Shown in pieces: positions 8,591 to 47,100 of a stretch of 64,000 bases of DNA (position 1 is its first letter; each line of letters begins with the position of its first letter). The DNA is from the human T2T-CHM13v2.0 reference genome, Homo sapiens. The position numbers were made by a program, and so were the translations under genes. The stretch is from NCBI RefSeq assembly GCF_009914755.1, contig NC_060931.1; one strand, given 5' to 3'. The notes below the pieces were generated by a model, which was given only the letters and a program-made list of their open reading frames with translations, did no database searches and was not told the DNA's origin.

Positions 8591-9922
8591 TTTTTTTTTT
8601 TTTACGAAATTTTCCTGGACTAAATTCTTTTTCTTTTCGTTTTTTATTATTATTATTGTACTCTAAGTTTTACAGTACATGTGCACAACGTGCAGGTTTG
8701 TTACATAAGTATACATATGCCATGTTGGTGTGCTGCACCCATTAACTCATCATTTAGCATTAAGTATATCACCTAATGCCATCCCTCCCCCCTTCCCCCA
8801 CCCCACATCAGTCTCCGGTGTGTGATGTTCCCCTTCCTGTGTCCATGTGTTCTCATTCTTCAATTCCCACCTCTAAGTGAGAACATGCGGTGTTTGGTTT
8901 TTTGTCCTTGCAATAGTTTGCTGAGAATGATGGTTTCCAGCTTCATCCATGTCCCTACAAAGGACATGAACTCATCATTTTTTATGGCTGCATAGTATTC
9001 CATGGTGTATATGTGCCACATTTTCTTAAAGGACCAGTCTATCATTGCTGGACATTTGGGTTCGTTCCAAGTTTTGCTATTGTGAATAGTGCTGCAATAA
9101 ACATACGTGTGCATGTGTCTTTATAGCAGCATGATTTATAATACTTTGGGTATATACCCAGTAATGGGATGGCTGGGTCAAATGGCATTTCTAGTTCTAG
9201 ATACCTGAGGAGTCGCCACATTGACTTCCACAATGGTTGAACTAGTTTACAGTCCCACCAACAGTGTAAAAGGGTTCCTATTTCTCCACATCCTCTCCAG
9301 CACCTGTTGTTTCCTGACTTTTTAATGATCGCCATTCTAACTGGTGTGAGATGGTATCTCATTGTGGTTTTGATTTGCATTTCTCTGATGGCCAGTGATG
9401 ATGAGCATTTTTTCATGTGTTTTTTGGCTGCATAAATGCCTTCTTTTGAGAAGTGTCTGTTCATATCCTTCGCCCACTTTTTGACGGGGTTGTTTGTTTT
9501 TTTCTTGTAAATTTGTTTGAGTTCATTGTGGATTCTGGATATTAGCCCTTTGTCAGATGAGTAGGTTGCAAAAATTTTCTCCCATTCTGTAGGTTGCCTG
9601 TTCACTCTGATGGTAGTTTCTTTTGCTGTGCAGAAGCTCTTTAGTTTAATTAGATCCCATTTGTCAATTTTGGCTTTTGTTGCCATTGCTTTTGGTGTTT
9701 TAGACATGAAGTCCTTGCCCATGCCTATTTCCTGAATGGTATTGCCTATGTTTTCTTTTAGGATTTTTATGGTTTTAGGTCTAGCATGTAAGTCTTTAAT
9801 CCATCTTGAATTAATTTTTTATAAGGTGTAAGGAAGGGATCCAGTTTCAGCTTTCTACATATGGCTAGCCAGTTTTCCCAGTGCCATTTATTAAATAGGG
9901 AATCCTTTCCCCATTGCCTGTT
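8591..9922 (-). mobile_element. 3' half (~1.3 kb) of an L1PA4-like element, with a double poly(A) tail
   Basis: ORF2 C-terminus (ORF 9042-9722) and 3'UTR. A-rich tail at ~8628-8657, then ~24 nt of unique sequence, then T13 at 8591-8603. L1 homology stops at ...gcaatggggaaag. Confidence 0.95.
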
Positions 9923-10779
9923 GGCCACCATAGCTTCAAGTCAACACTGCAAGGTCTACTGGGTATTGGAGCATGCATTAAACACCTTTGGTCTTTCTTC
10001 TATTTGTGTTTTCACTGGGTAATGAGGTTCTCACGGGCACCACCTTTGGCTCCACTGGATGTTCATCCCTTCCTTCCTGGGTTTCTTATTTTGCAAATGG
10101 TGCCATAATCTGTCCAGTTGTCCATGCCAGAAGCCTTGACTCTTTCTTCCAATAAATAATAAAAGAGTTGTGTATTATAAAGGCTTCATATCTCTCTGGA
10201 GCATCCACTTTTTTTTTTCCTTATCTCTACTTGAGTTATGGTCACCATCATTTCTGGACTGGATTGTTGCAACTGCTTCTTTGGATTGAACCTGTTTCAA
10301 GGCTTGCTTCTCTCAAATTACCTTTCACACTGCAACCATAATGCTATATATTTATAAGACAAATATAATTGTGAGATGATGTCAGTGGGAATAGCAGAAT
10401 AATGCCCTCCAAAAATCTCCACAAAAATAGAGAACACTGTCAAAAAATAGTCAGAATCAACTCTTTGTTTTTTGTTTTTGTTTTTATTTTTGTTTTTCAG
10501 AACTCTGTGTATCAACCCAACGCTTGAAGTAATATAGAGAGTGTTCATTCAAGAAAAATAGTAAGAATAGTGAGTTCTGTCATGTTTCAACCTGCCCCTT
10601 TCTCATTACCCCCACTCTGCAGTAACCTTGAAAACCAAAAAACTAAAATCACTATGAAAACTAGCAGCCTGGAAGCCACTGAAGGCAGCTGAATGGAGTT
10701 AGAGCCCCTTAAAAGTCCCATTTCTAAAACAATGTCATTATTTGACCTGTCTAGTGGTGCCCTGGGAGATCCCACTTAC

Positions 10780-44100: not shown

Positions 44101-47100
44101 AGAACTAGAGAAGCAAGAGCAAACACATTCAAAAGCTAGCAGAAGGCAAGAAATAACTAAAATCAGAGTGGAACTGAAGGAAATAGAGACACAAAAAACT
44201 CTTCAAAAAATTAATGAATCCAGGAGCTGGTTTTTTGAAAGGATCAACAAAATTGATAAACCGCTATCAAGACTAATAAAAAAAGAGAGAAGAATCAAAT
44301 AGACGCAATAAAAAATGATAAAGGGGATATCACCACTGATTCCACAGAAACACAAACTACCATCAGAGAATACTACAAACACCTCTACGCAAATAAACTA
44401 GAAAATCTAGAAGAAATGGATAAATTCCTCAACACATACACTCTCCCAAGACTAAACCAGGAAGAAGTTGAATCTCTGAATAGACCAATAGCAGGCTCTG
44501 AAATTGTGGCAATAATCAATAGCTTACCAACCAAAAAGAGTCCAGGACCAGATGGATTCACAGCTGAATTCTACCAGAGGTACAAGGAGGAACTGGTACC
44601 ATTCCTTCTGAAACTATTCCAATCAACAGAAAAAGAGGGAATCCTCCCTAACTCATTTTATGAGGCCAGCATCATCCTGATACCAAAGCCGGGCAGAGAC
44701 ACAACCAAAAAAGAGAATTTTAGACCAATATCCTCGATGAACTTTGATGCAAAAATCCTCAATAAAATACTGGCAAACCGAATCCAGCAGCACATCAAAA
44801 ACCTTCTCCACCATGATCAAGTGGGCTTCATCCCTGGGATGCAAGGCTGGTTCAATATATGCAAATCAATAAATGTAATCCAGCATATAAACAGAACCAA
44901 AGACAAAAACCACATGGTTATCTCAATAGATGCAGAAAAGGCCTTTGACAAAATTCAACAACCTTCATGCTAAAAACTCTCAATAAATTACGTATTGATG
45001 GGACGTATTTCAAAATAATAAGAGCTATCTATGACAAACCCACAGCCAATATCATACTGAATGGACAAAAACTGGAAGCATTCCCTTTGAAAACTGGCAC
45101 AAGACAGGGATGCCCTCTCTCACCACTCCTATTCAACATAGTGTTGGAAGTTCTGGCCAGGGCAATTAGGCAGGAGAAGGAAATAAAGGGTACTCAATTA
45201 GGAAAAGAGGAAGTCAAATTGTCCCTGTTTGCAGACGACATGATTGTATATCTAGAAAACCCCATTGTCTCAGCCCAAAATCTCCTTAAGCTGATAAGCA
45301 ACTTCAGCAAAGTCTCAGGATACAAAATCAATGTACAAAAATCACAAGCATTCTTATACACCAACAACAGACAAACAGAGAGCCAAATCATGAGTGAACT
45401 CCCATTCACAATTGCTTCCAAGAGAATAAAATACCTAGGAATCCGACTTACAAGGGATGTGAAGGACCTCTTCAAGGAGAACTACAAACCACTGCTCAAT
45501 GAAATAAAAGAGGACACAAACAAATGGAAGAACATTCCATGCTCATGGGTAGGAAGAATCAATATCGTGAAAATGGCCATACTGCCCAAGGTAATTTACA
45601 GATTCAATGCCATCCCCATCAAGCTACCAATGACTTTCTTCACAGAATTGGAAAAAACTACTTCAAAGGTCATATGGAACCAAAAAAGAGCCCGCATTGC
45701 CAAGTCAATCCTAAGCCAAAAGAACTAAGCTGGAGGCATCACACTACCTGACTTCAAACTATACTACAAGGCTACAGTAACCAAAACAGCATGGTACCGG
45801 TACCAAAACAGAGATATAGATCAATGGAACAGAACAGAGCCCTCAGAAATAACGCCGCTTATCTACAACCATCTGATCTTTGACAAACCTGAGAAAAACA
45901 AGCAATGGGGAAAGGATTCCCTATTTAATAAATGGTGCTGGGAAAACTGGCAAGACATATGTAGAAAGCTGAAACTGGATCCCTTCCTTACACCTTATAC
46001 AAAAATCAATTCAAGATGGATTAAAGACTTAAACATTAGACCTAAAACCATAAAAACCCTAGAAGAAAACCTAGGCTTTACCATTCAGGACATAGGCATG
46101 GGCAAGGACTTCATGTCTAAAACACCAAAAGCAATGGCAACAAAAGCCAAAATTGACAAATGGGATCTAATTAAACTAAAGAGCTTCTGCACAGCAAAAG
46201 AAACTACCATCAGAGTGAACAGGCAACCTACAGAATGGGAGAAAATTTTTGCAACCTACTCATCTGACAAAGGGCTAATATCCAGAATCCACAATGAACT
46301 CAAACAAATTTACAAGAAAAAAACAAACAACCCCGTCAAAAAGTGGGCGAAGGATATGAACAGACACTTCTCAAAAGAAGGCATTTATGCAGCCAAAAAA
46401 CACATGAAAAAATGCTCATCATCACTGGCCATCAGAGAAATGCAAATCAAAACCACAATGAGATACCATCTCACACCAGTTACAATGGCGATCATTAAAA
46501 AGTCAGGAAACAACAGGTGCTGGAGAGGATGTGGAGAAATAGGAACACTTTTACACTGTTGGTGGGACTGTAAACTAGTTCAACCATTGTGGAAGTCAGT
46601 GTGGTGATTCCTCAGGGATCTAGAACTAGAAATACCATTTGACCCAGCCATCCCATTACTGGGTATATACCCAAAGGACTATAAATCATGCTGCTATAAA
46701 GACACATGTACACGTATGTTTATTGCGGCATTATTCACAATAGCAAAGACTTGGAACCAACCCAAATGTCCAACAACAATAGACTGGATTAAGAAAATGT
46801 GGCACATATACACCATGGAATACTATGCAGCCATAAAAAATGATGAGTTCATGTCCTTTGTAGGGACATGGATGAAATTGGAAATCATCATTCTCAGTAA
46901 ACTATCGCAAGAACAAAAAACCAAACACCGCATATTCTCACTCATAGGTGGGAATTGAACAATGAGAACACATGGACACAGTAAGGGGAACATCACACTC
47001 TGGGGACTGTTGTGGGGTGGGGGGAGTGGGGAGAGATAGCGTTGGGAGATATACCTAATGCTAGATGACGAGTTAGTGGGTGCAGCGCACCAGCATGGCA

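What the first reader, a model, noticed from the sequence alone, without database searches (positions are those of the whole stretch)
9338..46482. 391-bp perfectly identical tract between two inverted L1s flanking GIMAP2
Seen: 9338-9728 (reverse complement) equals 46092-46482 with no mismatch by eye. Just outside the tract the copies differ repeatedly (for example aaaaatcctaaaagaaaacatagg vs aaaaaccctagaagaaaacctagg), and their 3'UTRs have different subfamily diagnostics. Both carry the same three ORF2 changes relative to the L1 consensus I recall: RIHNEL (Y>H), NNPVKK (I>V), SKEGIY (D>G). Inference: recent non-allelic gene conversion between inverted repeats ~37 kb apart. That geometry can also produce a recurrent inversion that would flip GIMAP2 relative to GIMAP1. 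The direction of transfer is not determined.
Basis: partly seen in the sequence, partly recalled or inferred. Interest (0 to 1): 0.75.

Follow-up and report, generated by a model that had tools for sequence, protein, structure and literature searches.

The report
Gene conversion between LINE-1s flanking GIMAP2
Two LINE-1 repeats on either side of the immune gene GIMAP2 share an identical 391-base stretch, most likely because DNA repair copied sequence between them in the last few million years without flipping the gene; it is a clean new example of a known process.

Summary
Its three rare variants occur together in only these 2 of 10,784 scanned L1 copies, and no pair among 1,652 pairs of other L1 copies exceeds 255 bp of identity. 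Recent non-allelic gene conversion is well supported. The inversion idea is not: both copies keep their own subfamily on both sides of the tract, the left element's target-site duplication is intact, and a T2T inversion catalogue lists nothing here. Direction is unresolved. Subfamily sites favour left-to-right, mutation load disfavours it, and a two-way GC-biased mosaic fits slightly best. That arm carries 3.4 kb likely transduced from two upstream loci, joined at a GT-AG-like junction across 111 kb. It also shows a second conversion-like tract with a fragment 73 kb away. These are known mechanisms in an unusually rich example. No other haplotype or ape genome was testable.

The parts
9338..9728 (-). 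Identical tract, left copy (L1 ORF2 3' part of arm A)
   Evidence: 0/391 mismatches to 46092-46482
46092..46482 (+). Identical tract, right copy (in L1 B); carries rare variants 46290C, 46335G, 46381G and older-type diagnostic bases 46233G, 46355T
46483..46598 (+). Near-identical extension (pairs with 9222-9337); 2 differences; older-type base 46490G suggests the converted stretch reached at least 46490
8641..9922 (-). Arm A: 3' 1.28 kb of an older-type L1PA element
   Evidence: 94% to B; A-type at flank diagnostics
8606..8633 (-). 28-bp non-L1 tag between the L1 tail and a second A-run; likely a 3' transduction
   Evidence: 28/28 match to chr7:128,778,102-129, no L1 in the 2.5 kb fetched there; chance expectation about 5e-7 by base composition
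8579..8595 (-). Target-site duplication, outer copy
   Evidence: 16/17 match to 18200-18216, the one difference at a CpG
18200..18216 (-). Target-site duplication, inner copy, preceded on the - strand by a TT/AAAA endonuclease-type site; 3-bp overlap with the end of arm C
9917..12876 (+). 2.96-kb copy of unique DNA from chr7:151,660,605-151,663,539 (includes EIF2AP3); likely 5' transduced exon; 6-bp overlap with arm A at its start
   Evidence: 95.3% BLAST identity, 105/2,928 substitutions
12874..12922 (+). 49-bp piece matching chr7:151,774,484-532; joined to the previous piece at a GT donor / AG acceptor 111 kb apart
12924..13283 (+). Copy of the 5' flank of a neighbouring L1 (S, chr7:151,775,023 onward), same L1 start point
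   Evidence: 21/279 substitutions outside the microsatellite
13284..18202 (+). Arm C: 5' 4.9 kb of the same older L1, inverted relative to arm A; ends 18 bases past where A begins in L1 coordinates
   Evidence: aligns to B 41149-45914 while A aligns from 45897
17078..17549 (+). Second conversion-like tract, shared with an L1 fragment at chr7:151,782,244 onward (L033:2090-2561), direct orientation, 73 kb away
   Evidence: 3/472 differences against 34/589 in the adjoining unique piece, p=1.8e-6; 8 shared rare variants
41149..47177 (+). L1 B: full-length, younger-type; lacks a 128-bp 5'UTR segment that C has; no matching TSD
20616..28551 (+). GIMAP2, lying between the two tract copies
   Evidence: hub annotation supplied with the finding

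Best explanation
The two L1 copies share a 391-bp identical stretch that was most likely made by non-crossover, non-allelic gene conversion within roughly the last 1-9 million years, leaving GIMAP2 in its original orientation in this haplotype. Shown: the identity, its uniqueness among scanned copies, the different subfamilies of the flanks, and no flank exchange. Inferred: a break in or near one L1 was repaired on the other copy 36 kb away, copying about 260-510 bp (46233-46490 at least if the older-type bases came from A, 46092-46598 at most). I commit to a mixed tract as the likeliest form (about 40%): older-type bases from the left copy were kept while most of that copy's private changes were lost, through patchy repair or two events in opposite directions. 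One-way left-to-right is about 35% and right-to-left about 25%. The left partner is inferred to be one 9.6-kb L1 insertion made by target-primed reverse transcription with twin priming from a read-through RNA.
For: 0/391; permutation 0 of 200,000; longest perfect run at most 255 in 1,652 paralog pairs and 205 in the 883 pairs at 5% or more divergence. Three variants together in 2 of 10,784 copies; the first two occur in 1.2% and 0.5%. Of 64 paralogs, 20 were classed B-type, 35 A-type and 9 intermediate ones dropped; copy B is B-type on both sides of the tract and copy A is A-type on both sides, so no crossover. TSD pair 8579-8595 / 18200-18216 spans the left tract in direct orientation. Age: 2 differences in 507 bp gives 1.6-2.5 Myr (95% range 0.2-8.9) at an assumed 0.8-1.2e-9 per site per year; a 10-Myr-old event is unlikely (P=0.0025). 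Tract size fits published NAGC (mean 250 bp, 67% GC bias; 10.1101/135152, passages).
Against: Only one assembly could be examined, so an assembly or polishing artefact is not excluded by data. Direction is strained either way. Subfamily sites favour A about 105-fold, but A has 46 private changes in 1,413 flank bases, predicting 12.7 in the tract where 3 are seen (P=0.0013); the combined ratio is 0.8. The four models lie within 15-fold of each other (A to B 2.8e-6, B to A 1.3e-5, mosaic 1.8e-5, GC-biased mosaic 4.1e-5), under crude independence assumptions and paralog sets chosen by similarity. 36 kb is beyond the roughly 10-kb range reported for elevated Alu conversion. No degenerate PRDM9 13-mer (motif recalled) lies in either tract; the nearest is at 8787.
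Confidence: 0.85

Rival explanations
1. The tract is the conversion scar of a crossover between the inverted L1s, so the 36-kb GIMAP2 segment is or was an inversion polymorphism.
For: Inverted orientation and a 391-507-bp near-perfect substrate. L1-mediated inversions exist (8 in PMC9675761, median size 5.5 kb, passages).
Against: No flank exchange; TSD pair intact, so only an even number of flips is allowed. No call at 151.8 Mb among 32 chr7 rows of Table S1 of PMC10150506. Published L1 pairs at inversions have median 97.1% similarity against 94% here.
Confidence: 0.05
2. The identity is an assembly or polishing artefact: reads from one copy overwrote the other.
For: A perfect block with sharp edges in a repeat; only one assembly seen.
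Against: Arm A is 1.3 kb inside non-L1 flanks, easily spanned by long reads (inference). Near-identity with 2 differences continues for 116 bp beyond the block. A second, imperfect tract (3/472) at the same element shows such exchange is biological here.
Confidence: 0.04
3. Both copies received the stretch from, or descend from, a third L1 source (shared sub-lineage or cDNA-templated conversion).
For: The tract is close to the family majority (3 rare changes) and has too few private changes for copy A. The neighbouring L1 S shares 46335G, seen in 56 of 10,784 copies.
Against: No third copy has all three variants; best other hits differ at 7-10 of 391; S differs at 14 of 390; the flanks are different subfamilies. 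Two independent captures of one tract need two rare events.
Confidence: 0.04
4. Chance: two related L1s happen to be unmutated over a conserved stretch.
For: This part of ORF2 is similar across subfamilies (other copies reach 98%).
Against: 0 of 200,000 permutations; 0 of 1,652 pairs; three shared rare variants.
Confidence: 0.005

Closest known systems
Non-allelic gene conversion between transposable-element copies (Alu, LTR; reviewed in PMC6598467, parts 1-2 of 4 read; PMC8230782, passages; PMC4921805, listing only)
   Same: Short tract of identity between copies of different subfamilies, mosaic diagnostic sites, unchanged flanks; older-to-younger transfer is also reported for Alu (12 cases).
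   Different: Here the partners are L1s 36 kb apart, beyond the roughly 10-kb range reported for elevated Alu conversion, and the partner is identifiable from private variants in one genome.
NAGC in human duplicates (10.1101/135152, passages)
   Same: Tract of a few hundred bases (mean 250 bp); all three retained rare variants are AT-to-GC, in line with 67% GC bias and site-by-site repair.
   Different: Substrate is a dispersed repeat at 94% identity, not a gene duplicate; GC bias here rests on 3 sites and two diagnostic sites go the other way.
L1-mediated NAHR inversions (PMC9675761, passages; PMC10150506, supplementary Table S1 chr7 rows)
   Same: Inverted L1 pair around a gene.
   Different: No crossover signature, lower similarity (94% against median 97.1%), larger span (36 kb against median 5.5 kb), no catalogue entry seen.
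Twin-primed 5'-inverted L1 insertions (10.1101/2021.12.20.472354, passages)
   Same: TSD around the whole insert, inversion point about 1.3 kb from the 3' end, short duplication at the inversion point, microhomology at both joins.
   Different: Inverted arm is 8.3 kb and reaches through the whole L1 5' end into 3.4 kb of non-L1 DNA; the paper reports a median of 666 bp and 88% under 1.5 kb.
L1 5' and 3' transductions (10.1101/2024.04.18.590093, passages)
   Same: Unique DNA 5' of the L1 copied from a source locus; short 3' tag before a second A-run; source may be absent.
   Different: Both ends in one old insertion, the 5' part stitched from loci 111 kb apart and the 3' tag from a locus 23 Mb away; the paper calls L1 5' transductions much rarer than 3' ones.

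Membership tests
Non-allelic gene conversion | Tract identity far above the flanks and above chance | tested here: met
   0/391 against 94% overall
Non-allelic gene conversion | Rare derived variants shared by just the two loci | tested here: met
   2 of 10,784 copies
Non-allelic gene conversion | Flanks not exchanged (non-crossover) | tested here: met
   subfamily sites on both sides; TSD pair
Non-allelic gene conversion | One-way donor-to-acceptor transfer | tested here: inconclusive
   diagnostic sites favour A, mutation load does not
Non-allelic gene conversion | Ancestral unconverted state in an outgroup or another haplotype | not testable with these tools
   the search tool holds no relatives of this genome
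Recurrent NAHR inversion | Inverted homologous repeats flanking the segment | tested here: met
Recurrent NAHR inversion | Chimeric repeats or inverted arrangement in this haplotype | tested here: not met
Recurrent NAHR inversion | Both orientations seen in the population | tested here: inconclusive
   absent from the 32 chr7 rows of Table S1 of PMC10150506 (44 sample columns); larger panels not seen
Twin-primed L1 insertion | One TSD around both arms, endonuclease-type site, poly(A) | tested here: met
   17-bp TSD with 1 mismatch
Twin-primed L1 insertion | 5' arm inverted and contiguous in L1 coordinates with the 3' arm | tested here: met
   C ends at B45914, A starts at B45897
Twin-primed L1 insertion | Empty pre-insertion site in an outgroup | not testable with these tools
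   no primate genomes held
L1 5' transduction | Non-L1 DNA 5' of the L1 matches the flank of a source L1 at the same start point | tested here: met
   L034
L1 5' transduction | Joins follow splice rules (RNA intermediate) | tested here: inconclusive
   first join GT-AG (also readable as short microhomology); second join is not a clean splice
L1 5' transduction | Daughter L1 closer to the source than to other copies | tested here: inconclusive
   C-S 5.9% against C-B 5.4%; 3 shared rare variants in 2,440 sites against 0-3 for 35 unrelated copies, plus 46335G
L1 3' transduction | Unique tag after the L1 tail matching another locus next to a source L1 | tested here: inconclusive
   tag matches one other locus exactly but no L1 lies in the 2.5 kb fetched

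The most novel reading that the evidence does not exclude
One doubly transducing, twin-primed 9.6-kb L1 insertion in the GIMAP cluster is a recurrent hub of ectopic exchange. It swapped two separate 400-500-bp tracts with partners 36 kb (inverted) and 73 kb (direct) away in the last few million years, one of them a two-way GC-biased mosaic. Both tracts may still be polymorphic and may seed rare GIMAP2 inversions or deletions spanning GIMAP6.
Probability: 0.2. Interest if true: 0.62.

Novelty: new member of a known kind. Interest (0 to 1): 0.42.

Why it matters
It is a rare case in which an L1-to-L1 conversion and its partner can be pinned down from one genome. It shows that 94%-identical L1s tens of kilobases apart can exchange sequence, which distorts subfamily dating and can create shared variants that short reads mis-map. 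The 391-507-bp block raises the chance of a future crossover that would invert GIMAP2, a T-cell gene, though none is seen. The left element is an extreme 5'-inverted, 5'-transducing L1 that likely explains the origin of EIF2AP3. No effect on gene function is shown; both tracts lie in old, interrupted L1 copies.

Tried and rejected
Shared sub-lineage: rejected by exact scans. Net inversion in this haplotype: rejected. Conversion at the time B inserted: unlikely (P=0.0025 for 10 Myr). An early reading that A is plainly the donor was withdrawn after the mutation-load test. Expecting the 3' tag beside the neighbouring L1 S failed: S's 3' end is replaced by other sequence and the tag maps 23 Mb away. 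Using S as an outgroup for A gave little: S is no closer to C than B is. A TSD for B was sought and none longer than 9 bp with one mismatch was found. The 125-bp L1 piece at 19853-19977 shares none of A's or B's private changes. A recalled degenerate PRDM9 13-mer gave 3 hits in the window, none in a tract. Literature: searches listed no paper on this locus by title or abstract (only listings were seen for most hits). Supplements of PMC9675761 had no hit for GIMAP1, GIMAP2 or two coordinate prefixes based on a recalled GRCh38 offset (one file unreadable), a weak negative. Supplements of the bioRxiv papers were not seen and may hold inversion or transduction calls. Earlier scan findings were not available.
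Full report
OBSERVATION. The reverse complement of 9338-9728 equals 46092-46482 at all 391 positions. Copy A (8641-9922, -) and copy B (45897-47177, +) differ at 77 of 1,284 columns overall. Shuffling the 75 difference events 200,000 times never gave a run of 391 (mean 80, maximum 264). An empirical control agrees: among 1,652 pairs of 64 fetched L1 paralogs with at least 1,000 aligned columns, the longest perfect run was 255, and 205 among the 883 pairs at 5% or more divergence. 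Beyond the perfect block only 2 differences occur in the next 116 bp (46483, 46547), after which divergence returns.

NOT A SUB-LINEAGE. A similarity search of the whole assembly scored 40 of 1,805 candidates: the two window copies at 100%, the rest at 97-98% (7-10 mismatches in the 28 other loci fetched). Of 10,784 L1 copies with the three anchor words, 125 have 46290C, 56 have 46335G, 4 have both, and 2 have all three, the two window copies. Copies with other changes in the anchors are invisible to this scan, and the third variant was not counted alone.

NO CROSSOVER. I classed 64 paralogs (28 chosen by likeness to the tract, 29 to A's 3' flank, 7 to B's 3' flank) using only sites outside 46092-46598: 20 B-type, 35 A-type, 9 intermediate and dropped. 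Copy B carries B-type bases on both sides of the tract and copy A carries A-type bases on both sides. A single crossover in the tract would have swapped the inner flanks. Independently, a 17-bp target-site duplication (8579-8595 and 18200-18216, one CpG difference) has one copy outside and one inside the would-be inversion, still in direct orientation. This haplotype is therefore not net-inverted. In the T2T inversion table of PMC10150506 (supplementary Table S1, all 32 chr7 rows seen, 44 sample columns) the last chr7 entry is at 145.56 Mb. The geometry allows an inversion, but I found no sign of one. Published L1 pairs at inversions are closer (median 97.1%) and the events smaller (median 5.5 kb) (PMC9675761, passages).

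DIRECTION. Inside the tract both copies have older-type bases: 46233G (B-type A in 17 of 20; A-type G in 29 of 32), 46355T (B-type C in 17 of 20; A-type T in 33 of 34) and, just outside, 46490G (B-type A in 17 of 20; A-type G in 21 of 33). Eight such sites favour A as donor about 105-fold. The neighbouring L1 S also has the rare 46335G, a weak pointer to A's lineage. Against this, the left element has 46 private changes in 1,413 flank bases, predicting 12.7 in the tract, where 3 are seen (P=0.0013); B's rate (19 in 1,426) predicts 5.2. Combined, the ratio is 0.8. All three retained variants are AT-to-GC, whereas only 14 of A's 46 flank changes are. Crude likelihoods are A to B 2.8e-6, B to A 1.3e-5, unbiased mosaic 1.8e-5 and GC-biased mosaic 4.1e-5 (bias 67.3% from 10.1101/135152, passages). 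These assume independent sites and ignore that conversion favours stretches that were already alike, which would help the A-to-B model. Direction is unresolved; a mixed tract is my lead reading at about 40%.

AGE. With an assumed rate of 0.8-1.2e-9 per site per year, 2 differences in 507 bp give 1.6-2.5 Myr (95% range 0.2-8.9), and 0 in 391 gives an upper bound of 3.9-5.9 Myr. B lacks a 128-bp 5'UTR segment present in C. From memory this is the roughly 129-bp deletion that marks later L1PA3 and younger elements, making B about L1PA3 and the left element L1PA4-6; these labels are recalled and come from no call.

WHAT THE LEFT COPY IS. The L1 at 13284-18202 (+, arm C) aligns to B 41149-45914, and A starts at B 45897: two arms of one full-length element, inverted at a point with an 18-base overlap. 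The TSD encloses both arms, the inner copy follows a TT/AAAA site, and there are 3- and 6-base overlaps at the two joins. This is the twin-priming pattern (10.1101/2021.12.20.472354, passages: median inverted arm 666 bp, 88% under 1.5 kb), but the inverted arm here is 8.3 kb. Between the arms, 9917-12876 copies unique DNA at chr7:151,660,605-663,539 (105 of 2,928 substitutions), 12874-12922 matches chr7:151,774,484-532, and 12924 onward matches the 5' flank and start of an L1 (S) at chr7:151,775,023. The first join falls at a GT in the upstream locus and an AG 111 kb downstream; the second join is not a clean splice. The likely source is a spliced read-through RNA running into S, that is a 5' transduction, which would also explain EIF2AP3; L1 5' transductions are known but much rarer than 3' ones (10.1101/2024.04.18.590093, passages). 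Two results weaken the link to S: C is no closer to S (5.9%) than to B (5.4%), and they share 3 rare variants in 2,440 sites against 0-3 for 35 unrelated copies. A three-way comparison of the unique piece (7, 15 and 19 lineage-specific changes) suggests unequal local rates that would reconcile this. After A's tail lies a 28-bp tag and a second A-run; the tag's only other match is exact, at chr7:128,778,102-129, with no L1 in the 2.5 kb fetched. A lost source allele is the simplest inference.

A SECOND TRACT. The 3' end of S is replaced by 590 bp of the same unique sequence followed by 553 bp of L1 ORF2. The unique piece differs from the window at 34 of 589 sites, but the L1 piece differs from arm C at only 3 of the first 472 and 6 of the last 79 (p=1.8e-6 and 4e-4), shares 8 rare variants with C and none with S or B. 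The simplest reading is a second recent conversion, 73 kb away in direct orientation. A later templated insertion copied from C is the rival.

MECHANISM AND COMPARISON. Shown: identity, uniqueness, different subfamilies, no flank exchange, TSD, source-like paralogs. Inferred: break repair on the ectopic copy, age, direction, RNA intermediate. Conversion between repeat copies is established for Alu and LTRs (PMC6598467, parts 1-2 of 4 read; PMC8230782, passages), with elevated rates within about 10 kb; tract size here matches the published mean of 250 bp. Eight searches listed no paper on this locus, but the library lacks most subscription papers and bioRxiv supplements were not seen.

VERDICT. 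A real, recent L1-to-L1 gene conversion (confidence 0.85), a new member of a known kind. The inversion is unsupported. Interest 0.42, raised by the unusual anatomy of the left element and the second tract, and limited by the lack of any second genome or functional effect.

Noticed in passing
window 41149-47177 with 40348-41145 and 47182-49349: Full-length L1 B has no matching TSD; its 5' neighbour is an older L1 piece cut after a TT/AAAA-type site and its 3' neighbour is a different older L1 that begins about 1.5 kb earlier in L1 coordinates. This suggests an insertion-associated deletion or a recombinant of two insertions.
   Followed up: partly
window 19853-19977: 125-bp L1 ORF2 piece (96% to B) with no poly(A), 640 bp upstream of the GIMAP2 start; shares none of A's or B's private changes. 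Possibly captured at a break.
   Followed up: partly
L033:760-980 (chr7:151,780,914 onward): About 200 bp of a younger L1 3' end inserted antisense into the neighbouring L1 S, with a short duplication of the target.
   Followed up: no
L033:1501-2642 (chr7:151,781,655-151,782,796): The 3' end of L1 S is replaced by a 590-bp third copy of the EIF2A-pseudogene region plus a 553-bp L1 ORF2 piece; origin unexplained.
   Followed up: partly
L032 (chr7:151,660,605-151,663,539): Unique locus 95% identical to window 9917-12876, likely the parent of EIF2AP3; it has changed less (7 sites) than its two copies (15 and 19) over 589 bp.
   Followed up: partly
window 15108-15166: T-rich insertion of about 55 bp (poly-T then TTTA repeats) interrupting ORF1 of arm C; looks like a very short antisense retro-insertion tail.
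   Followed up: no
window 44802, 44806, 46982: B shares three bases with L1 S that were absent from the paralogs covering them (0 of 14, 0 of 14, 0 of 55); could be further small exchanges or chance.
   Followed up: no
G000:C13:57740286-57743600 (listing; L005): Two L1 stretches 3.2 kb apart in opposite orientation show the same 80 listed bases with the same rare changes; another possible inverted duplication or conversion.
   Followed up: no
window 40299-40346: 48 bases match L1 ORF2 in reverse (96% to L081) directly beside the older L1 piece at 40348, suggesting that piece is itself 5'-inverted.
   Followed up: no
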